Source: Escherichia coli (GTDB taxonomy: Bacteria > Pseudomonadota > Gammaproteobacteria > Enterobacterales > Enterobacteriaceae). Taken from it: a stretch of 64,000 nucleotides of DNA. The position numbers and the translations under genes are program-made. This document shows positions 2,712-42,071 of this stretch, in pieces (within the stretch, counting starts at the first letter, position 1; each line of letters starts with the position of its first letter). The notes under the pieces are model-generated. The model was not told where the DNA came from. It ran no database searches and saw only the letters and a list, made by a program, of their open reading frames with translations. Location: the NCBI RefSeq assembly GCF_041886205.1, contig NZ_CP169029.1. One strand, given 5' to 3'.

Positions 2712-3739
2712 AAATGACCTTTACCTCTACTCTGATTGCTTCTGCCGTTGCGCTGGCGACTTTAACGGGTGCCGCGCAGGCGAAAGGCCGGCTGGTGGTC
2801 TATTGCAGCGCCACCAATGAAATGTGTGAAGCTGAAACCAAAGCGTTTGGCGAGAAATATGATGTGAAAACTTCATTTATCCGCAACGGTTCCGGAAGCA
2901 CCCTGGCAAAAGTCGATGCTGAAAAGAAAAACCCCCAGGCTGACGTCTGGTATGGCGGCACTTTAGACCCGCAATCGCAGGCCGGCGAGATGGGCCTGCT
3001 ACAGGCGTATAAATCCCCTAACCTTGAGCAGATCATGGAGAAATTCCGCGATCCGGCAAAAGTGAAAGGGAATCTGTCCTCTGCCGTATATGTGGGGATC
3101 CTCGGTTTTGGCGTAAACACCGATCGTCTGAAAGAGAAAGACCTGCCGGTGCCGAAGTGCTGGAAAGATCTCACCAAACCGGAATATAAAGGCGAAATTC
3201 AAATTGCCGATCCGCAAAGTTCCGGTACTGCCTACACCGCGCTGGCTACTTTTGCGCAGCTGTGGGGGGAAGATCAGGCCTTTGATTATCTAAAACAACT
3301 GAACGCCAACGTCTCCCAGTATACCAAATCAGGCATAGCCCCGGCACGTAACGCCGCTCGCGGCGAAACGGCGATTGGTATTGGCTTCCTGCATGACTAC
3401 TCGCTGGAAAAAGAACAGGGTGCGCCGCTGGAGTTGATTTCCCCTTGTGAAGGTACGGGCTATGAAATTGGCGGCGTCAGCATTCTGAAAGGCGCGCGCA
3501 ACCTCGACAATGCCAAACTGTTTGTGGACTGGGTATTATCAAAAGAAGCTCAGGAACTGGCGTGGAAGAAAGGGAAGTCTTATCAGATCCTGACCAATAC
3601 CACCGCCGAAACGTCGCCAAATTCGCTGAAGCTCGACGACCTGAAATTAATCAACTACGACATGGATAAATACGGTTCCACGGATGTTCGTAAGGCATTG
3701 ATTAATAAATGGGTTAGCGAAGTGAAGATGGGTAAGTAA
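2708..3739 (+). CDS. afuA: AfuA/FbpA-family periplasmic substrate-binding protein (sugar-phosphate or ferric type)
   Basis: Start MKMTFTSTLIASAVALATLTGAAQA is a signal peptide; ATG overlaps the uhpC-like stop (ATGA). The long ORF 2381-3739 is an upstream extension in the same frame. Confidence 0.8.
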   Translation: MKMTFTSTLIASAVALATLTGAAQAKGRLVVYCSATNEMCEAETKAFGEKYDVKTSFIRNGSGSTLAKVDAEKKNPQADVWYGGTLDPQSQAGEMGLLQAYKSPNLEQIMEKFRDPAKVKGNLSSAVYVGILGFGVNTDRLKEKDLPVPKCWKDLTKPEYKGEIQIADPQSSGTAYTALATFAQLWGEDQAFDYLKQLNANVSQYTKSGIAPARNAARGETAIGIGFLHDYSLEKEQGAPLELISPCEGTGYEIGGVSILKGARNLDNAKLFVDWVLSKEAQELAWKKGKSYQILTNTTAETSPNSLKLDDLKLINYDMDKYGSTDVRKALINKWVSEVKMGK

Positions 3740-3807
3740 ACCCGCATTAGGCGCATTTGCCGGGTGCAGCACAAATGCCTGCCCCGGCCAACCATACCGG
3801 AACTGCT

Positions 3808-5886
3808 ATGTCACAGACACTTGCACTCCATCCCGTGAAAAAGCGGGATGCGATTTTCCTTTGGGTTTTGCTGGGCTGGCTGGCATTTATCCTGTTGCCG
3901 AGCTGGAGTCTCGATTATGGCCTGCTGGAATCCACGAGTGATGAGATCCTCGAGGCTTATGGCTGGTCGCATTTTAATATCAGCTGGCTGTGGTATTTGT
4001 TACCGAGTCTGTTGCTGGTTCGCCCGTTTCGTGAGGCCACACGTGAACAGCGTAGTCGTCATTATTTTGATGCCGGCTGGGCATTGCTCTGTATGGCGTT
4101 TATCGTCATCAGCGCCACCGTGGCTGGACGCGGTTTAGGCTACGCCGCCATCGTGCTGTTTGTTGAATTAGGCGCGATTATGACGCTGGCCTTAACCCGC
4201 CTCGAATGGCTGGGCGGCGACCGCTTCGTGATCGGCTCGCTGATTGCGATTGTGGCGCTGATTGGCATTTTTATCGTCTGGCCGAGCATCGCCATTTTTA
4301 TCCCGATGTTCACCAACGACGCGGGAGAGTTCGCCCCGCTGGCGTTTATGAACGTGCTCTCGCAGGCACATATTGTGCAGGTGATCGTCAACTCTATCGT
4401 CTTGTCGATAGCGGTGGGTATTGGCTGTACCTTCTTCGGTCTGGTACTGGCGATTTATACCACGCGCATCGCCAAACGCAGCGCCATTATTGGCCGCATC
4501 TTTTCCATTCTGCCCATCGTTACACCACCGTTTGTGGTCGGCTTAGGCGTGACACTCATGATGGGGCGCTCCGGCTATATCACGGAGTTTATGGTGGAGT
4601 GGTTTGGGCTGACCAACACCAACTGGCTGTATGGCTTTACCGGGATCTGGCTGGCGCAGGTTCTGGCATTCACGCCAATGGCTTTTATGATCCTCGACGG
4701 GGCCATTAAAACCATTCATCCCTCGCTGGAAGAGGCCTCCTACACCCTGCGCGCCAGCCGCTGGCAAACCTTTAACGGCGTGTTTGTGCCGTTGCTAAAG
4801 CCCGCGCTCGCCAATGCCTTTTTAATCGTCGTGGTACAGTCACTGGCTGATTTCAGTAACCCGCTGGTGCTTGGCGGCAACTTCGACGTACTGGCGACGC
4901 AAATTTACTTCTACATTACCGGCTCGCAGCTGGATTATCAGGCCGCCAGCACGCTTGGTGCTTTCCTGCTGCTGTTCTCGCTGCTGGTGTTCTGCGTCCA
5001 GTATATGTGGATTGGTAAACGCTCTTACGTCACGGTTTCCGGCAAATCCTACCGTGGCGACGTCCAGCCACTACCGGTCACCCTGGTGTGGAGCGTGGTC
5101 GCCATACTTGCGGTATGGATTGCCTTTAACGCCCTGCTCTACGGCAGCATTTTCTACGGCAGCTTCACGGTGAACTGGGGCGTTGACTACACCCTGACGC
5201 TGGATAACTTTATCAAGTTATTTGGTCAGGGGATGAGCGACGGCGCGTGGCCTTCACTGTTGGATACCCTGCTCTACGCCGGGATTGCAGCCCCCATTAC
5301 CGCTATCTTTGGCCTGCTCATCGCCTGGGTGGTGGTGCGTCAACAATTCAAAGGCAAAAAGACCATCGAGTTCACCACCATGCTGTGCTTTGCCGTACCG
5401 GGTACGGTGGCGGGCGTCTCGTATATTCTCGCCTTTAACAGCGCTCCGGTTTATCTCACCGGAACGGCGGCAATTGTGATTATCTCGATGGTGATGCGTA
5501 ACGTTCCGGTGGGCATTCGTGCCGGGATTGCAGGTCTGGGGCAGATCGACAAATCGCTGGATGAAGCCTCACTCAGCCTGCGTGCGGGTTCCCTGCGAAC
5601 CATAACCCACATTTTACTGCCGCTGCTGCGCCCGGCCATTCTCTCGGCCCTGATCTACAGCTTTGTGCGGGCCATCACGACGGTCAGCGCCATCGTCTTT
5701 CTCGTCACGCCGGACACCCGCGTGGCAACAGCCTACATTCTTAACCGCGTTGAAGACGGCGAATATGGCGTAGCTATCGCCTATGGTTCGATTCTGATCG
5801 TGGTGATGCTGGCGATTATTTTCCTCTTTGACTGGCTGATCGGAGAAGCACGTATCTCCCGTTCTAAAGCCAAAAACCAGGCGTAA
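3808..5886 (+). CDS. afuB: AfuB/FbpB-family ABC transporter permease (fused two-domain)
   Basis: About 690 aa polytopic membrane protein; start chosen at MSQTLAL with GGAA upstream; ORF also open from 3757. Confidence 0.75.
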
Positions 5887-5897
5887 TGGAGCGCACT

Positions 5898-6944
5898 ATG
5901 AGTCAGAAAAATTTTGTGGAACTGCGCAACGTCACTAAACGATTCGGCAGTAATACGGTTATCGACAATATCAATCTCACCATTCCACAAGGGCAAATGG
6001 TGACGCTGCTCGGCCCTTCCGGCTGTGGCAAAACCACCATTCTGCGTCTGGTTGCCGGGCTGGAAAAACCGAGCGAAGGGCAAATTTTTATTGATGGCGA
6101 AGATGTCACGCATCGTTCCATTCAACAGCGCGATATCTGCATGGTGTTTCAGTCATACGCTCTGTTCCCGCATATGTCGCTGGGTGAAAACGTTGGCTAC
6201 GGGCTGAAGATGCTTGGCGTGTCGCGTAGCGAAGTGAAACAGCGGGTGAAGGAGGCGCTGGCAATGGTGGATCTGGAAGGCTTCGAGGACCGCTATGTCG
6301 ATCAGATTTCCGGTGGTCAGCAACAGCGTGTGGCGCTGGCCCGCGCGTTGATCCTCAAACCGAAGGTACTGCTGTTTGATGAGCCGTTAAGTAACCTCGA
6401 TGCCAACCTGCGCCGCAGTATGCGCGATAAGATCCGCGAGCTGCAAAAGCAGTTTAATATCACGTCGCTCTACGTCACTCACGATCAAAGTGAAGCTTTC
6501 GCGGTGTCCGACACCGTACTGGTGATGAATAAAGGTCACATCATGCAGATTGGTTCACCGCAAGATCTCTATCGTCAGCCCGCCTCCCGCTTTATGGCAA
6601 GTTTTATGGGCGACGCCAACCTGTTCCCGGCGAACTTTAGCGAAGAGGATGTCGATATCTACGGTTATCGCCTGCCGCGCGCGGCGCATTTCCCGGCGCA
6701 AGGTAGCGGCACCGTCGGCGTTCGCCCGGAAGCCATCACCTTAAGCAATCACGGCGAAGAGAGTCAGCGTTGTGTTATTCGCCATGTCGCCTACATGGGG
6801 CCGCAGTACGAAGTGACCGTAGAGTGGCATGGACAGGAGATTTTATTACAAGTAAACGCCACCCGTTTACAGCCCGATATTGGTGAGCACTATTACCTCG
6901 AAATCCATCCTTACGGGATGTTTGTTTTAGCGGATGCGGCATAA
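5898..6944 (+). CDS. afuC: AfuC/FbpC ABC transporter ATP-binding protein
   Basis: Walker [10 protein letters not shown], signature [15 protein letters not shown], Walker B LLFDEP; 348 aa from MSQKNF; an in-frame ATG at 5886 overlaps the afuB stop. Confidence 0.9.
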
Positions 6945-37518: not shown

Positions 37519-37561
37519 AAGACTAAACCCAATATTCGGTTTCTTAACTTTGCGGTGCGCT

Positions 37562-39148
37562 ATGGCACATCCACCACGGCTTAATGACGACAAACCGGTT
37601 ATCTGGACGGTATCTGTAACGCGCCTGTTCGAGCTGTTTCGCGATATCAGCCTCGAGTTTGATCACCTGGCGAACATTACCCCTATCCAGCTTGGCTTTG
37701 AAAAAGCAGTGACCTATATCCGCAAGAAACTGGCAAACGAACGGTGCGACGCCATCATCGCCGCTGGATCTAACGGCGCGTACCTGAAAAGCCGCCTGTC
37801 AGTGCCAGTTATTTTGATTAAACCGAGCGGCTACGATGTGTTACAGGCACTGGCAAAAGCCGGAAAACTCACCTCTTCTATCGGCGTTGTCACCTATCAG
37901 GAAACCATTCCAGCGCTGGTGGCGTTTCAAAAAACCTTTAATCTGCGCCTCGATCAACGTAGCTACATTACCGAAGAAGACGCGCGCGGGCAGATTAACG
38001 AGCTGAAAGCTAACGGCACTGAAGCGGTGGTCGGCGCGGGGCTGATTACCGATCTGGCAGAAGAAGCCGGAATGACCGGAATTTTTATCTATTCCGCCGC
38101 CACCGTGCGCCAGGCGTTCAGCGATGCGCTGGATATGACGCGCATGTCGTTACGCCATAACACTCACGATGCCACCCGCAACGCCCTGAGAACTCGTTAC
38201 GTGCTGGGCGATATGCTCGGTCAATCACCACAGATGGAACAAGTACGGCAGACTATTTTGCTGTATGCCCGCTCCAGTGCAGCGGTGTTGATTGAGGGGG
38301 AAACGGGGACGGGCAAAGAGCTGGCGGCCCAGGCGATTCATCGGGAATATTTTGCCCGCCACGATGCGCGACAGGGCAAAAAGTCGCATCCGTTTGTTGC
38401 CGTCAACTGCGGGGCGATAGCCGAATCGCTGCTGGAAGCGGAGCTGTTTGGCTATGAGGAAGGGGCGTTTACCGGCTCGCGACGCGGAGGTCGCGCCGGG
38501 CTGTTCGAAATTGCCCACGGCGGTACGCTGTTTCTGGATGAGATTGGCGAAATGCCGCTACCTTTGCAGACTCGCCTGTTACGGGTGCTGGAAGAAAAAG
38601 AGGTCACCCGCGTCGGCGGGCATCAGCCTGTTCCGGTAGATGTACGGGTCATTAGCGCCACTCACTGCAATCTGGAAGAAGATATGCAGCAAGGACGTTT
38701 TCGCCGTGATCTGTTTTATCGGCTGAGTATTTTGCGTCTGCAATTGCCACCACTGCGCGAGCGGGTGGCGGATATTCTTCCGCTGGCGGAAAGCTTTTTG
38801 AAAGTGTCTCTGGCGGCGCTCTCCGCCCCGTTTTCTGCCGCATTACGCCAGGGATTACAGGCAAGCGAAACCGTGCTGGTGCACTACGACTGGCCAGGTA
38901 ATATTCGTGAACTGCGCAATATGATGGAGCGACTGGCGCTATTTTTAAGTGTGGAACCGACGCCGGATTTAACGCCGCAATTTTTGCAGCTGCTACTGCC
39001 GGAACTGGCGCGCGAGTCGGCGAAAACTCCCGCTCCACGCTTACTGACACCACAACAGGCACTGGAGAAATTTAATGGCGATAAAACAGCAGCGGCGAAT
39101 TATTTAGGCATCAGCCGGACGACGTTCTGGCGGCGGCTGAAAAGCTGA
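37562..39148 (+). CDS. prpR: Sigma-54-dependent activator of the prp operon
   Basis: 528 aa from [22 protein letters not shown]+ sigma-54 interaction domain ([13 protein letters not shown]); divergent from prpB. Confidence 0.93.
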
Positions 39149-39150
39149 AC

Positions 39151-39183
39151 TGCCGAATGCAGCGCGAACGCTTTATCCGGCAT
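39151..39183. repeat. Degenerate REP-like palindrome after prpR
   Basis: TGCCGAATGCAGCGCGAACGCTTTATCCGGCAT. Confidence 0.5.
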
Positions 39184-39245: not shown

Positions 39246-39521
39246 TTACTTCTTCTTATAAATATCCGCCGTGCCGTGGATCTTATTGTCAGTCTGACCG
39301 GAGGTCAGCACCAACACATCAGCCCCTTTTTCATCGGCTTTTTTGATCAGATCTTCTTTCGCATCTGCGGTCGACATTTCATTACTGGTTGAAATATCAC
39401 CTATTTTTTCATATTGCGATGCAACTTTTTCAAATTCCGCTTTGGTCATTAATTCTGCGGCATAGATATTGGTAACGGCAAACGCTAACGCACCGACTAA
39501 CATTTTAGAGATTATTTTCAT
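39246..39521 (-). CDS. yahO: YahO periplasmic protein (DUF1471)
   Basis: 91 aa with signal peptide [21 protein letters not shown]. Confidence 0.85.
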
Positions 39522-39667: not shown

Positions 39668-40339
39668 ATGATGCAGTTAGTTCACTTATTTATGGATGAA
39701 ATCACTATGGATCCTTTGCACGCCGTTTACCTGACCGTAGGACTGTTCGTGATTACTTTTTTTAATCCGGGAGCCAATCTCTTTGTGGTAGTACAAACCA
39801 GCCTGGCTTCCGGTCGACGCGCAGGGGTGCTGACCGGGCTGGGCGTGGCGCTGGGCGATGCATTTTATTCCGGGTTGGGTTTGTTTGGTCTTGCAACACT
39901 AATTACGCAGTGTGAGGAGATTTTTTCGCTTATCAGAATCGTCGGCGGCGCTTATCTCTTATGGTTTGCGTGGTGCAGCATGCGCCGCCAGTCAACACCG
40001 CAAATGAGCACACTACAACAACCGATTAACGCACCCTGGTATGTCTTTTTTCGCCGCGGATTAATTACCGATCTCTCTAACCCGCAAACCGTTTTATTTT
40101 TTATCAGTATTTTCTCAGTAACATTAAATGCCGAAACACCAACATGGGCTCGTTTAATGGCCTGGGCGGGGATTGTGCTCGCATCAATTATCTGGCGAGT
40201 CTTTCTTAGTCAGGCGTTTTCTTTGCCCGCTGTGCGTCGTGCTTATGGGCGTATGCAACGCGTTGCCAGTCGGGTTATTGGTGCAATTATTGGTGTATTC
40301 GCGCTACGCCTGATTTACGAAGGGGTGACCCAGCGGTGA
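39668..40339 (+). CDS. yahN: LysE/RhtB-family amino-acid exporter
   Basis: 223 aa membrane protein. Confidence 0.85.
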   Translation: MMQLVHLFMDEITMDPLHAVYLTVGLFVITFFNPGANLFVVVQTSLASGRRAGVLTGLGVALGDAFYSGLGLFGLATLITQCEEIFSLIRIVGGAYLLWFAWCSMRRQSTPQMSTLQQPINAPWYVFFRRGLITDLSNPQTVLFFISIFSVTLNAETPTWARLMAWAGIVLASIIWRVFLSQAFSLPAVRRAYGRMQRVASRVIGAIIGVFALRLIYEGVTQR

Positions 40340-40355
40340 GCAGATAATTTACTCT

Positions 40356-40601
40356 CTACGTAATCAACCTGATTTGCCGAATCCCGACCATCGGCGATGA
40401 TAGCCCCCGTAATGCGTGGTCCTTATTTCCGATAAGTTTACTTGAGTCTTTAGCTTCCCATTTCAGCCCACTCTCCCCTGTGTGGGCTTTTTTCATTGGT
40501 CTGCCCCATCCTGAATAGCCAAACAATGGCAATGTTCCACTTTGCAGGGATGATAATAAGGGGATCTGATTCAGAAGAGTTTTGAAAAGTTGGACCGCCA
40601 T
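40356..40601 (-). CDS. yahM: Small uncharacterised protein YahM
   Basis: 81 aa from MAVQLFKTLLNQ; position and size match recalled K-12 yahM (17 bp from yahN); a hairpin lies inside it. Confidence 0.5.
   Translation of the reverse strand: MAVQLFKTLLNQIPLLSSLQSGTLPLFGYSGWGRPMKKAHTGESGLKWEAKDSSKLIGNKDHALRGLSSPMVGIRQIRLIT
40465..40494 (+). terminator. Intrinsic-terminator-like hairpin plus T6 (AGCCCAC-10 nt-GTGGGCT-TTTTTT), candidate yahN terminator
   Basis: 7 bp GC-rich stem followed by TTTTTT, 126 bp downstream of yahN, inside the yahM ORF. Confidence 0.5.
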
Positions 40602-41013
40602 CGAGGCCTCGAACCCCGTACCATACAACAATCCTGGTTGTCGTCTGCTCTTCCTGATGAGCTAATGGCGGTTTTTGATATGAGCCTTACAGCATATTTT
40701 CTGTCAGGCTTGAGTGCGATGCGTAAGATACAGAAAAGACCCCACACAAACATGATGGAATTATGATTTTTTTCATATGAATGTCAACCCACACATTCAC
40801 AAAACATCTGCATGAGATCATTTTTTATACACCGCATGGCTGCGAAACCACTACTGGTGCTTTTTTAAGCGAAGTGTCGCCGATCACAACAAAATATAGG
40901 CGAAAAAAGAGATGGAATGCCTGTTGGCATACAGATATACAGATGAAATGATTACCTGCATTGCGATTCACTCTCAGGTGGAATAACAATTTGCAGGTGG
41001 AACCCTTTCTGAA

Positions 41014-41829
41014 CTAAAGAGTGTAGCGGATTTTAACGTGCTTATTTACAGGATAATATCTGTCACCTAATTCCTGCACTCTATTAGATATCCATTCATT
41101 TAATCGCGCATCATCTCTGTATGTTTTTACGTCCAGAACAGAGAGCAATAACATCACCAGTGATTCAGGAAAAACAGGGTAGATATTTTTTAAGTGTAAT
41201 AATAATCCATGCGCAAGCGCCTGCTTAATGGGCGCGTCTGTCTCCGGAATAGACGACATTTCGCGAAGCCATTTTTCCACATGCATACACTCTTTCCCTT
41301 TAGGGAAAATTTTCAGCAAAGGCATATGGTGTTCAAGAAGAATACATTTGCAATCTGTTCGCACTGAATCGATAAACTGCACTAATTTCTTAAGCCCGGT
41401 AAAGCGTCCAGCCTGCACGTTTGCTTTAATATCAAGAAACGCATCATCCTGGTCATATACCCAAACTGTCCCTTTTTGATTTTCAAGTATGTGAAAAACA
41501 AACTTAACCGGGTGATCAGGGTAATCCATCCAGTCATAAAATCCAGGGAAATCATTAAACTGCACATTTATGGTGAGTGCGTTATCGTCTGACCACTCAC
41601 AGTCTCGTACGGCAGCCATGAGATGAATGAGTTTGTCGTCATCGACTAAATCATCACGACAATCATAAGGATAATCATAATATTGTTTAATCAAAACCTT
41701 GAATATATCGACACAGGAAACCAGGGAGCTTTTGATATCCTCTGGTAACTGATTGTTTTTAACCGTATTAAGTATGCTTTGTTGCGTATATGGCATCAAA
41801 TTATTGTGCGGAGCTTTTAATGATATCAT
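41014..41829 (-). CDS. yahL: Uncharacterised protein YahL
   Basis: 271 aa; MISLKAPHNNLMPYTQQSILNTVKNNQLPEDIK. Confidence 0.8.
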   Translation of the reverse strand: MISLKAPHNNLMPYTQQSILNTVKNNQLPEDIKSSLVSCVDIFKVLIKQYYDYPYDCRDDLVDDDKLIHLMAAVRDCEWSDDNALTINVQFNDFPGFYDWMDYPDHPVKFVFHILENQKGTVWVYDQDDAFLDIKANVQAGRFTGLKKLVQFIDSVRTDCKCILLEHHMPLLKIFPKGKECMHVEKWLREMSSIPETDAPIKQALAHGLLLHLKNIYPVFPESLVMLLLSVLDVKTYRDDARLNEWISNRVQELGDRYYPVNKHVKIRYTL

Positions 41830-42071
41830 CGCGATCTCTCTTAAATAAAAATAAACGTCGCAGATAATAAAGCTCTGATTAAACCAGGCACTATCAGAAA
41901 TCGCTCATAACTAACGTGTGAAGTATTGTGTACTGGAGGGCGTTAATTTAACAATTTAAATTTACGTTATAGGTTTTACTGCTACTTTGATATTATTTCG
42001 CTCTCCTTAACTAAAAAGTTAAGTGGAGAGCGAAGTTAATATGTTAAACCACAGGGTATTTATTAATTTTT

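What the first reader, a model, noticed from the sequence alone, without database searches (positions are those of the whole stretch)
40356..40601. yahM contains a terminator-like hairpin with T6 on the opposite strand
The 81 aa yahM ORF matches K-12 position and spacing, but a GC-rich stem-loop followed by TTTTTT (40465-40494) lies inside it on the + strand, where it would terminate yahN transcripts. Either the terminator is embedded in a real small gene or yahM is a spurious annotation over the yahN 3' region.
Basis: partly seen in the sequence, partly recalled or inferred. Interest (0 to 1): 0.3.

Follow-up and report, generated by a model that had tools for sequence, protein, structure and literature searches.

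The report
yahM hides a conserved tRNA-like gene
The hairpin is real and looks like the terminator of the neighbouring gene yahN, but the "yahM protein gene" drawn over it shows no sign of coding for a protein; what evolution conserves on that strand is an unannotated, phage-derived tRNA-shaped RNA gene with its own promoter.

Summary
Observation confirmed. A 7-bp GC-rich stem (40465-40471 / 40482-40488) followed by T6 (40488-40493) lies on the + strand, 126 nt after the yahN stop and inside the annotated yahM ORF (40356-40601, minus strand).

yahM shows no coding signature. Its pN/pS is 0.9-1.6 with a flat codon-position profile, against 0.1-0.3 and a strong third-position bias for yahN. The ORF is broken in O157 (nonsense at codon 12) and in B2-like strains (T6 to T5 in the terminator run), and it shrinks to 11-31 codons in three other Escherichia lineages. 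It has no homologs outside E. coli/Shigella. Published data place a strong Rho-termination region inside it.

Its ATG lies in the 3' acceptor strand of an 81-nt cloverleaf (40591-40671, minus strand). This element is homologous to the lambdoid-phage argN tRNA but has a non-canonical anticodon arm. It is 100% identical between E. coli, E. albertii and two further Escherichia lineages, while its flanks are 75-93% identical. An 11/12 sigma-70 promoter sits upstream (TSS 40753). The conserved unit is 40582-40809.

Best reading: yahM is an untranslated trailer that runs from a conserved tRNA-like RNA gene into the yahN terminator. The RNA's function is unknown. No ribosome-profiling data could be reached, and no 3' end at the hairpin is listed in the one dataset I could read.

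The parts
39668..40339 (+). yahN CDS (LysE-family transporter), the gene the hairpin would terminate
   Evidence: ORF. Pfam LysE E=6e-60. Annotated yahN in RefSeq. pN/pS 0.10, with 29 of 40 changes at third positions.
40340..40464 (+). Inferred yahN 3' UTR between the stop codon and the hairpin
   Evidence: Read from the sequence. 84-90% identical in E. albertii and SCPM; replaced by unrelated DNA in Escherichia sp. E1V33.
40465..40493 (+). Terminator-like hairpin (arms 40465-40471 and 40482-40488, 10-nt loop) plus T6 (40488-40493)
   Evidence: dG -12.7 kcal/mol. Stem preserved in E. albertii and SCPM, wobble change in EC32, T-run length polymorphic (T5/T6/T7).
40356..40601 (-). Annotated yahM ORF (81 codons plus stop); judged non-coding
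   Evidence: ORF (listed from the upstream TTG at 40631). pN/pS 1.6 and 0.89, flat codon-position profile. Nonsense and frameshift alleles. 11-31 codons in other Escherichia lineages. No Pfam or NCBIfam hit.
40591..40671 (-). 81-nt tRNA-like element (argN-derived cloverleaf with encoded CCA); its 3' acceptor strand contains the yahM ATG (40601-40599), and its T-loop GAGG mimics a Shine-Dalgarno sequence
   Evidence: ARAGORN. MFE structure is a cloverleaf. Homology to the phage argN position. 100% identical across four Escherichia lineages. No match to the Rfam tRNA model.
40672..40753 (-). Leader from the TSS (40753) to the tRNA-like element; the last ~24 nt (40672-40695) still resemble the ileZ 3' end and spacer of the phage cluster
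   Evidence: The TSS is inferred from the start of the cloning primer for the 5'UTR fusion in PMC7815308 and from its position 7 nt after the -10 hexamer. Homology extent. 80-88% identical across species.
40760..40787 (-). yahMp sigma-70 promoter, TTGACA-16-CATAAT (11 of 12 consensus positions)
   Evidence: Conserved in E1V33 and SCPM; TTGACA...CATATT in E. albertii. Promoter and TSS confirmed, with IHF as repressor, by Reg-Seq (bioRxiv 10.1101/2025.05.13.653802).
40582..40809 (-). Conserved module (promoter, leader, tRNA-like element) retained while both flanks vary between Escherichia lineages
   Evidence: BLAST boundaries in E1V33 and E. albertii.
40615..40615 (-). Published Term-seq RNA 3' end (K-12 345390, + strand) inside the 5' strand of the T-stem
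   Evidence: PMC7815308 supplementary files 1 and 3. The printed flanking sequence matches the window.
40400..40440 (-). Published Rho-termination region (peak at K-12 345585, equal to window ~40420) inside the yahM ORF. The range given is approximate.
   Evidence: PMC7815308 supplementary file 2: Rho score 6.2, p = 3e-33.

Best explanation
Two convergent transcription units meet here, and 'yahM' is not a protein gene. On the + strand, yahN mRNA most likely ends at the hairpin plus T6 (40465-40493), acting as a Rho-independent terminator. This step is inferred. On the minus strand, a near-consensus sigma-70 promoter (40787-40760, TSS 40753) transcribes an ~80-nt leader and then an 81-nt tRNA-shaped RNA (40671-40591). 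That RNA descends from the middle tRNA (argN) of the lambdoid-phage ileZ-argN-argO cluster. It keeps intact acceptor, D and T arms and an encoded CCA, but its anticodon arm is non-canonical. RNA polymerase then runs on through an untranslated trailer, crosses the complement of the yahN hairpin (no U-tract follows it on this strand), and is stopped by Rho about 45 nt further on, at ~40420. This last step is shown by published data. The 81-codon ORF called yahM is that trailer. Gene finders accept it because the 3' acceptor strand supplies an ATG and the T-loop supplies a GAGG at Shine-Dalgarno distance. In the folded RNA both are base-paired, and 3' processing at the CCA would cut the ATG away from the rest of the ORF. 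The selected product is the tRNA-like RNA, together with its promoter. Its most likely mode of action is as a non-decoding tRNA mimic recognised through the acceptor/T-arm 'elbow' by tRNA-handling factors. This is inferred, and the actual function is unknown.
For: **Hairpin:**; conservation.

**No coding constraint.** In 10 E. coli genomes the yahM frame has 3 synonymous, 15 nonsynonymous, 1 nonsense and 2 indel changes. That gives pN/pS 1.6 and codon positions [7,8,4], against yahN at 0.10 and [10,1,29]. In 74 clean metagenomic haplotypes the yahM frame gives 0.89 and [10,10,11], the same as the two other frames (0.93 and 0.81), against yahN at 0.29 and [25,16,59].

**ORF decay.** O157 carries CAG to TAG at codon 12. 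B2-like strains are frameshifted by T6 to T5 and are annotated 'frameshifted'. 17 of 115 metagenomic loci are truncated to 11-50 codons. The ORF is 11, 17 and 31 codons in SCPM, E1V33 and E. albertii. Homologs are found only in E. coli/Shigella, and there are no domains.

**tRNA-like element.** ARAGORN calls it and its MFE structure is a cloverleaf. It is homologous to the phage argN position. It is 100% identical in E. albertii, E1V33 and SCPM, where yahN is 82-87%, the leader 80-88% and the promoter 75-93% identical. At the flank divergence rates, zero changes in 82 nt has probability about 6e-8, 9e-7 and 2e-4 for the three lineages (my calculation). The only common variant, in O157, turns a T-stem G.U pair into G.C. 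Segregating sites number 2 of 53 in the element against 22 of 81 in the leader. The element is single-copy in each genome.

**Module and transcription.** The module 40582-40809 is kept while both flanks are replaced. The Rho-termination region inside the ORF and the 3' end at 40615 come. yahM-yahN is listed as a convergent excludon in PMC12288877.
Against: - The ORF is intact in most E. coli (95 of 115 metagenomic loci) and is preceded by an SD-like GAGG, so weak translation cannot be excluded.
- I could reach no ribosome-profiling or proteome data for this gene.
- No Term-seq 3' end is listed at the hairpin on the yahN strand. This may only reflect low yahN expression.
- No mature 3' end at the CCA (K-12 345414) is listed either. 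The observed 3' end (40615) lies inside the T-stem, so a full tRNA-shaped species may not accumulate.
- The element fails the Rfam tRNA model.
- The polymorphism samples are small, and the metagenomic contigs include assembly noise.
- The cross-species lineages share ancestry, so the three probabilities are not independent.
Confidence: 0.7

Rival explanations
1. yahM is a genuine but young, E. coli-restricted small protein gene. The tRNA-like element is its structured 5' UTR, and the yahN terminator happens to be embedded in its coding sequence.
For: The 81-codon ORF is intact in most E. coli. A GAGG lies 5 nt before the ATG. The transcript is made and regulated: a confirmed promoter, induction on epithelial cells (PMC7649339), and membership of a 'core perturbome' gene set (PMC12389024).
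Against: pN/pS is about 1 and the yahM frame is indistinguishable from the other frames. Nonsense and frameshift alleles are fixed in the O157 and B2-like lineages. The upstream RNA is perfectly conserved where the ORF is lost. The ATG and the SD-like motif lie inside the acceptor and T stems. A strong Rho-termination region inside the ORF implies ribosome-free RNA. There are no homologs or domains.
Confidence: 0.12
2. The tRNA-like element is a cis-acting leader rather than a trans-acting RNA. Its fold, or its processing, sets how much transcription escapes Rho and runs antisense into the yahN 3' end. In this reading the unit exists to regulate yahN, as an excludon.
For: The published 3' end lies inside the element (40615) and is flagged as part of a Rho-termination region. 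yahM-yahN is listed as a convergent excludon in at least 50% of the RNA-seq samples analysed. The truncated RNA can adopt an alternative pairing of the 5' acceptor strand with AUGGUACGG.
Against: In E1V33 and E. albertii the DNA between the element and yahN is replaced, and E1V33 also lacks the hairpin, yet the element stays 100% identical. A purely cis role tied to this particular downstream sequence is hard to reconcile with that. A regulatory leader would not normally need every one of 81 nt invariant.
Confidence: 0.13
3. The tRNA-like element is an inert relic of an old lambdoid prophage (a dead argN pseudogene), the whole yahN-yahL spacer is junk, and only the terminator matters.
For: The anticodon arm is non-canonical and the Rfam tRNA model fails. 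Similar degenerate copies occur in phages and on a plasmid, where they are annotated 'tRNA-OTHER' or left unannotated. One Escherichia lineage (MOD1-EC7003) has deleted it, and IS1 insertions occur in single strains.
Against: The element shows zero substitutions across species whose flanks differ by 10-25%. Its one common variant preserves the structure. The promoter is conserved and experimentally active. It is single-copy, so gene conversion cannot keep it uniform. The phage copies are only 76-86% identical, so they cannot be a recent source, and the exact variant is absent from viral contigs.
Confidence: 0.05

Closest known systems
Rho-independent (intrinsic) terminators of E. coli
   Same: A GC-rich 7-bp stem-loop is followed directly by U6, lies downstream of a stop codon on the same strand, and is one-directional.
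   Different: The 10-nt loop is longer than usual. The 126-nt 3' UTR places the terminator inside an annotated ORF on the other strand. No measured 3' end is yet available.
argN, the middle tRNA of the ileZ-argN-argO cluster in the late region of lambdoid and Stx phages (phiP27, PhiR49_2 and others)
   Same: There is clear sequence homology over 105 nt, covering the acceptor, D and T arms, the CCA, and a trace of the upstream ileZ end and spacer. It has the same 81-nt length class as the degenerate phiP27-type copies.
   Different: It is chromosomal and single-copy, with its own sigma-70 promoter instead of phage late transcription. It has no anticodon UCG or canonical 7-nt loop. Its specific sequence is absent from viral contigs. 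It is conserved across Escherichia species.
Prophage attachment-site tRNA pseudogenes of K-12 (ptwF, pawZ, pauD; recalled from EcoCyc/EcoGene, not checked here)
   Same: They are tRNA-derived sequences in the chromosome that owe their presence to phage history.
   Different: Those are partial 3' duplicates of a host tRNA gene at the far end of an integrated element. This one is full-length, has no host paralog, has no adjacent integrase or island, and has a promoter.
tRNA-like non-coding RNAs: the tRNA-like domains of YrlA (Y-RNA-like) and of tmRNA (from general knowledge)
   Same: They have a tRNA-shaped acceptor/T-arm/D-arm module without a decoding anticodon, and they are conserved as RNA.
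   Different: There is no sequence relationship. No rsr/rtcB or smpB partner gene lies nearby. No effector domain is attached. Processing, modification and binding partners are untested.
Spurious or overprinted small ORF annotations in K-12 (y-genes later demoted to 'phantom' genes)
   Same: It is an orphan ORF with no homologs, no selection signature and lineage-specific disruptions, and it lies over functional non-coding elements.
   Different: Here the ORF's apparent start signals (ATG and GAGG) are supplied by a tRNA acceptor strand and T-loop, and the ORF also spans a terminator of the opposite strand.
Convergent 'excludon' gene pairs
   Same: yahM-yahN is listed as a convergent excludon from RNA-seq overlap (PMC12288877). 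The mapped ends imply at least ~70 nt of overlap (40420-40493).
   Different: One partner is probably a non-coding RNA unit rather than an mRNA. Mutual regulation has not been shown.

Membership tests
Intrinsic (Rho-independent) terminator | GC-rich stem-loop immediately followed by a U-tract on the transcribed strand | tested here: met
   7-bp stem with 5 GC pairs, dG -12.7 kcal/mol, then T6. No T-run follows it on the minus strand.
Intrinsic (Rho-independent) terminator | Located shortly downstream of a gene end on the same strand | tested here: met
   It starts 126 nt after the yahN stop, and no other candidate lies between them.
Intrinsic (Rho-independent) terminator | RNA 3' ends map to the U-tract in vivo | tested here: inconclusive
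   No 3' end at K-12 ~345505-345529 appears in the curated Term-seq lists of PMC7815308. yahN expression in those conditions is unknown.
Intrinsic (Rho-independent) terminator | Stem pairing conserved in relatives | tested here: met
   Stem identical in SCPM. Only loop changes in E. albertii. C to T gives a G.U pair in EC32. One strain (317) has a 1-nt deletion that weakens the stem. The hairpin is absent in E1V33, where the whole 3' region is replaced.
Protein-coding gene (YahM) | Purifying selection in the reading frame (pN/pS below 1, excess of third-position changes) | tested here: not met
   pN/pS 1.6 with positions [7,8,4]. pN/pS 0.89 with positions [10,10,11], equal to the off-frames. 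The yahN control gives 0.10 and 0.29.
Protein-coding gene (YahM) | ORF maintained in related lineages | tested here: not met
   11, 17 and 31 codons in SCPM, E1V33 and E. albertii. Nonsense in O157, frameshift in B2-like strains. 17 of 115 metagenomic loci truncated.
Protein-coding gene (YahM) | Homologs or recognisable domains | tested here: not met
   Hits only in E. coli/Shigella. No Pfam or NCBIfam family.
Protein-coding gene (YahM) | Evidence of translation (ribosome footprints, peptide detection) | not testable with these tools
   The supplements I reached contain no entry for yahM or its neighbours, and Li et al. 2014 is not held.
Canonical tRNA (Rfam RF00005) | Cloverleaf with acceptor, D, anticodon and T arms, plus the conserved core nucleotides (U8, A14, G18G19, T54-Psi55-C56, A58) | tested here: met
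   The MFE structure is a four-arm cloverleaf. The core nucleotides were read directly from the sequence. ARAGORN calls a tRNA.
Canonical tRNA (Rfam RF00005) | 7-nt anticodon loop with U33 and a purine at 37; overall fit to the covariance model | tested here: not met
   The loop is CCAGGA (6 nt) or CAGGAUU (with A33 and U37), depending on register. The arm is 4-5 nt too long. No RF00005 hit at E<=10, even on 101 nt. RefSeq annotates no tRNA there.
Canonical tRNA (Rfam RF00005) | Mature species ending at CCA in vivo | tested here: inconclusive
   No 3' end at K-12 345414 is listed. The listed end is 345390, inside the T-stem. Term-seq may under-sample charged or structured ends.
Lambdoid-phage argN tRNA lineage | Sequence homology to argN across the acceptor, D and T arms | tested here: met
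   76-86% identity over 82-110 nt, E down to 4e-17. Variants are listed.
Lambdoid-phage argN tRNA lineage | Position between Q/DNA methylase and the stx or lysis genes, flanked by ileZ and argO; anticodon UCG | tested here: not met
   The chromosomal context is yahN and yahL/yahK. No ileZ or argO is present, apart from ~24 nt resembling the ileZ end and spacer. The anticodon arm is replaced.
att-site tRNA pseudogene (ptwF/pawZ type) | Partial duplicate of a host tRNA 3' end bordering an integrated element with an integrase | tested here: not met
   It is full-length, single-copy and without a host paralog. No integrase or island lies at the locus in any lineage examined. The only insertions seen are sporadic IS1 copies.
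Convergent excludon | Overlapping transcription of convergent neighbours | tested here: met
   This rests on the literature only. yahM-yahN is listed in PMC12288877. The published minus-strand Rho region at ~40420 lies beyond the hairpin. Reciprocal regulation was not tested.

The most novel reading that the evidence does not exclude
The genus Escherichia carries a domesticated, phage-derived, tRNA-shaped non-coding RNA gene. It has its own near-consensus, IHF-repressed, stress-responsive promoter, is terminated by Rho, and is under near-absolute purifying selection. It has been hidden for decades under the protein annotation 'yahM'. It would act in trans as a non-decoding tRNA mimic, for example as a decoy or ligand for a tRNA-binding enzyme, nuclease or defence/toxin system.
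Probability: 0.4. Interest if true: 0.65.

Novelty: new variant of a known kind. Interest (0 to 1): 0.5.

Why it matters
As written, the finding is ordinary. It describes a terminator of one gene lying inside a dubious ORF on the other strand, and the outcome is a case for demoting yahM (b0327, UniProt P75692) from protein gene to non-coding.

The by-product matters more. E. coli K-12, the best-annotated genome there is, appears to contain an unannotated tRNA-like RNA gene. It is invariant from E. coli to E. albertii, has an experimentally confirmed promoter, and descends from a phage tRNA. If it is functional, it is a tractable example of a phage tRNA domesticated into a non-decoding RNA.

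It would also explain why 'yahM' keeps appearing in transcriptome screens (epithelial adhesion, stress 'perturbome', Rho and Reg-Seq studies) without any protein function ever being found. In addition, it is a warning for gene finders: a tRNA acceptor strand and T-loop can imitate a start codon with a Shine-Dalgarno sequence.

Tried and rejected
1. **Built-in terminator scan.** It did not report the hairpin because its loop limit is 8 nt. I replaced it with my own scan.
2. **Rfam.** It gave only sub-threshold chance hits (Betaproteobacteria toxic sRNA over the hairpin, an L31 leader over the T-arm). Both were rejected.
3. **Phage origin of the yahM body.** I tested whether the yahM body or the promoter region derives from the phage cluster. 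There is no homology beyond 40591-40695.
4. **Integration site.** I considered whether the tRNA-like element is an integration site. The partial copies turned out to be sporadic IS1 insertions, and no integrase is present.
5. **Two divergent 'YahM' proteins (P0050, P0057).** They led to fragmented, low-quality assemblies and were not used.
6. **Ribosome-profiling and proteome look-ups.** PMC7043885, PMC8144880, PMC11005335 and bioRxiv 2021.07.02.450978 had no entries or no files. Li et al. 2014 is not held.
7. **Further 3'-end datasets.** TERMITe (PMC12207403) and Dar & Sorek 2018 (PMC6061677) gave nothing.
8. **Literature searches for a described RNA gene here.** Searches on argN/ileZ/argO, tRNA-like/pseudo-tRNA and yahL returned noise or nothing relevant.
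9. **First metagenome alignment.** It was polluted by misaligned contigs, and an earlier attempt timed out. Only the gap-free re-analysis is used.
10. **Internal Met36 start (46-codon ORF).** Rejected: the ATG is ACG in SCPM and E. albertii, and the frame is shifted there.
Full report
**1. Layout and observation**

The window is E. coli and is 100% identical to strain wlxctx60 over this stretch. The local order is as follows:
- prpR (+, 37550-39148)
- yahO (-, 39246-39521)
- yahN (+, 39668-40339)
- yahM (-, 40356-40601)
- yahL (-, 41014-41829)

AGCCCAC (40465-40471) pairs with GTGGGCT (40482-40488) across a 10-nt loop, and TTTTTT (40488-40493) follows. It starts 126 nt after the yahN stop. The stem alone folds at -12.7 kcal/mol, and the local context has a z-score of -2.1. 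On the minus strand the stem forms too but is followed by GAAAUGG, not by U's. The tool's terminator scan missed it only because of its 8-nt loop limit.

A strict version of the motif occurs once in the 64-kb window, against 0.38 per shuffle. Sequence alone is therefore weak evidence, and position and conservation carry the argument.

**2. Is yahM a gene?**

I compared ten E. coli genomes spanning 95-100% identity.
- yahN behaves as a normal gene: 31 synonymous and 9 nonsynonymous changes, 29 of 40 at third positions, pN/pS 0.10.
- The yahM frame has 3 synonymous, 15 nonsynonymous, 1 nonsense and 2 indel changes, codon positions [7,8,4] and pN/pS 1.6.

A second sample came from metagenomes: 115 loci, of which 74 were gap-free haplotypes.
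- The yahM frame gives pN/pS 0.89 and positions [10,10,11]. The two other frames on the same strand give 0.93 and 0.81, so it is indistinguishable from them.
- yahN gives 0.29 and [25,16,59].

The ORF is broken in several lineages:
- O157:H7 has CAG to TAG at codon 12, and RefSeq annotates only a 69-codon 'hypothetical protein' there.
- B2-like strains (317, EC32) are annotated 'frameshifted'.
- 17 of the 115 metagenomic loci are cut to 11-50 codons, and 43 different protein sequences occur among the 115.

The B2-like frameshift is telling. It is a T6 to T5 change in the terminator's T-run, which keeps a hairpin plus T-run but destroys the reading frame.

Protein searches find relatives only in E. 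coli and Shigella, many of them truncated. There is no Pfam or NCBIfam family.

**3. Other species**

yahN orthologs in Citrobacter, Salmonella enterica subsp. arizonae and diarizonae, and Edwardsiella are followed by unrelated DNA. None has the hairpin, yahM, the tRNA-like element or yahL. Within Escherichia the picture is informative:
- E. albertii keeps the yahN 3' UTR and the hairpin, with changes only in the loop. The DNA that encodes the N-terminal 35 codons of yahM is replaced.
- Escherichia sp. E1V33 has replaced everything between yahN and the tRNA-like element.
- The divergent 'E. coli SCPM-O-B-8794' lineage keeps the DNA but not the frame.
- The ORF starting at the yahM ATG is 31, 17 and 11 codons in these three lineages.

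**4. What is conserved instead**

ARAGORN reports a tRNA at 40591-40671 on the minus strand. Its 3' acceptor strand...CGATGGCGGTCCA, contains the yahM ATG (40601-40599). The T-loop GAGG sits 5 nt upstream of that ATG, which explains why gene finders accept this start.

The 81-nt sequence folds by minimum free energy into a complete cloverleaf. It has U8, A14, G18G19, T54-T55-C56 and A58 in the expected places, and an encoded CCA (read).

Its anticodon arm is 4-5 nt too long. The loop is either 6 nt (CCAGGA) or 7 nt (CAGGAUU, with A33 and U37). The Rfam tRNA model does not match even when only 101 nt are searched. RefSeq annotates no tRNA there.

**5. Origin of the element**

BLAST links the element, and only the element (window 40591-40695), to the middle tRNA position of the lambdoid-phage ileZ-argN-argO cluster. 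That cluster lies between Q/DNA methylase and the stx or lysis genes.
- The matches are 76-86% identical, in phiP27, mEp460, TL-2011c, PhiR49_2, Yersinia phages and a plasmid-borne prophage fragment. In the plasmid fragment PGAP labels the homolog 'tRNA-OTHER'.
- In IMG/VR contigs most copies are a canonical 77-nt tRNA-Arg (UCG). Fourteen are an 81-nt degenerate form that shares the GCAGACGACA... start of the aberrant arm with the window copy.
- The exact chromosomal variant occurs in no viral contig.
- The degenerate phage forms also fold as cloverleaves with a 7-bp anticodon-like stem and a short loop.

**6. Strength of conservation**

The 82-nt block is 100% identical in E. albertii, E1V33 and SCPM. 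In the same genomes the yahN coding sequence is 82-87% identical, the leader 80-88% and the promoter 75-93%. At the divergence of the adjacent leader and promoter, the chance of no change in 82 nt is about 6e-8, 9e-7 and 2e-4 for the three lineages. These figures are my calculation, and the lineages are not independent.

Within E. coli:
- 4821 of 5170 records carry the identical 82-mer, against 3591 of 5114 for the neighbouring 82 nt of the yahM body.
- The one common variant (the O157 lineage) changes the T-stem G.U pair to G.C.
- Segregating sites are 2 of 53 in the part of the element not fixed by my search pattern, against 22 of 81 in the leader.
- The element is single-copy in each genome, so concerted evolution cannot explain the uniformity.

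**7. The transcription unit**

An 11/12 consensus sigma-70 promoter (TTGACA-16-CATAAT, 40787-40760) lies ~90 nt upstream of the element and is conserved in all four lineages.

Published work supports it:
- Adams et al. built a 'yahM 5' UTR + ORF' fusion that starts at ATGTTTGTGTGGGG, which is window 40753, 7 nt after the -10 hexamer (PMC7815308).
- Reg-Seq confirmed a yahM promoter and TSS, with IHF acting as a repressor (bioRxiv 10.1101/2025.05.13.653802).

The block conserved across species is 40582-40809. Its flanks vary:
- In E1V33 it sits directly between yahN and yahK.
- In E. albertii its upstream neighbour is different again.
- In B2-like E. coli, yahL (41001-41835) is cleanly absent.

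A self-contained promoter-leader-tRNA-like module that survives replacement of both flanks is the signature of the functional unit.

**8. Fate of the transcript**

Adams et al. list a Term-seq 3' end at K-12 345390 (+) in three growth conditions. This is window 40615, in the 5' strand of the T-stem, and the printed flanking sequence matches. They also list a Rho-termination region peaking at 345585 (window ~40420) inside the 'yahM ORF', with Rho score 6.2 and p = 3e-33. Rho needs ribosome-free RNA, so this argues against efficient translation of yahM.

No 3' end is listed at the CCA (345414) or at the hairpin on the yahN strand. A full-length tRNA-shaped species and use of the yahN terminator are therefore both unproven.

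The RNA truncated at 40615 can pair its 5' acceptor strand with AUGGUACGG, a near-copy of the true 3' strand. That could explain a stable exonuclease stop at that position. This is an inference.

ExcludonFinder lists yahM-yahN among the convergent pairs with overlapping transcription (PMC12288877). That fits minus-strand RNA reaching ~40420 and plus-strand RNA reaching ~40493.

**9. Expression**

'yahM' RNA is induced in STEC adhering to colonic cells (PMC7649339) and belongs to a stress 'core perturbome' (PMC12389024). These measurements report RNA, not protein.

**10. Conclusion**

The hairpin is real and is best read as the yahN intrinsic terminator. This is inferred, at about 65-70% confidence.

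yahM fails every test of a protein-coding gene that I could run. It is best read as the untranslated, Rho-terminated trailer of a conserved tRNA-like RNA unit (about 80-85% that it is non-coding). I found no prior description of that RNA gene in the searchable literature.

The RNA's function is unknown. The mechanism I consider most likely is a non-decoding tRNA mimic acting through its intact acceptor/T-arm/D-arm body. A cis role in Rho-dependent control of antisense transcription into yahN is the main alternative.

I could not obtain ribosome-profiling or proteomic evidence. That remains the decisive missing test.

Noticed in passing
window 39109-39182 (minus strand), between prpR and yahO: A REP-like palindromic element gives a sub-threshold Rfam match to naRNA4/CssrE (28.6 bits against a gathering score of 59.5, E = 0.02). 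Adams et al. also list a Term-seq 3' end nearby, at K-12 346858 (+), antisense to the prpR end.
   Followed up: no
window 41001-41835 (yahL): yahL is a presence/absence polymorphism with clean boundaries. It is absent in the B2-like strains 317 and EC32, in E1V33 and in E. albertii, and it has an internal stop in strain fEC.1. It has no convincing Pfam family. Genomic SELEX peaks for sigma-28, sigma-24 and sigma-32 were reported inside it (PMC5493296). One paper uses it as an 'E. coli-specific signature protein' (PMC11057252) although it is missing from part of the species.
   Followed up: partly
window 40672-40753 (minus strand), the leader: The leader folds into two hairpins and contains strongly conserved blocks, for example GCGATGCGTAAGATA and CAGCATATTTTCTGTCAGG on the + strand. 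Its last ~24 nt resemble the 3' end of phage ileZ plus the spacer, so the leader may be a decayed ileZ. I did not test whether the hairpins covary.
   Followed up: partly
window 40605-40671 (minus strand): The variable-region/T-stem segment AUGGUACGG nearly duplicates the true 3' acceptor strand AUGGCGG. In the RNA truncated at the published 3' end (40615) it pairs with the 5' acceptor strand. This may be an alternative fold or an exonuclease-resistant form.
   Followed up: no
L042, L045 and 12 other viral contigs; L004 (phiP27) 2501-2582; L002 (plasmid) 3001-3081: A degenerate 81-nt argN derivative persists at the argN position in 14 of ~94 phage contigs, in two near-identical variants, and still folds as a cloverleaf. 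It may be a maintained non-decoding tRNA-like RNA in phages too, not just a dead copy. One further 78-nt variant (L054) shares the chromosomal T-arm (GAGGCCTCG).
   Followed up: partly
L136 (strain DETEC-S792) 5248-5945; L137 (strain NT1F25) 3288-3985 and 5201-5898: Independent IS1 insertions occur at this locus. One splits the tRNA-like element near its 3' end, and others lie inside the yahM body and yahL. This shows that the element is dispensable in at least single isolates.
   Followed up: yes
L033 (Escherichia sp. MOD1-EC7003) 3669-3900: This lineage has two deletions (window 40349-40501 and 40549-40990). Together they remove the hairpin, the tRNA-like element and the promoter, and most of yahL is also gone. 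It is a natural knockout of the whole module.
   Followed up: partly
window 40571-40753 (minus strand, 60-codon ORF); L039 1732-1913: PGAP sometimes annotates a second 'hypothetical protein' (marked frameshifted) running across the leader and the tRNA-like element. It appears as 'hypothetical protein | yahM' in several RefSeq records and is another probable artefact of the same unannotated RNA gene.
   Followed up: no
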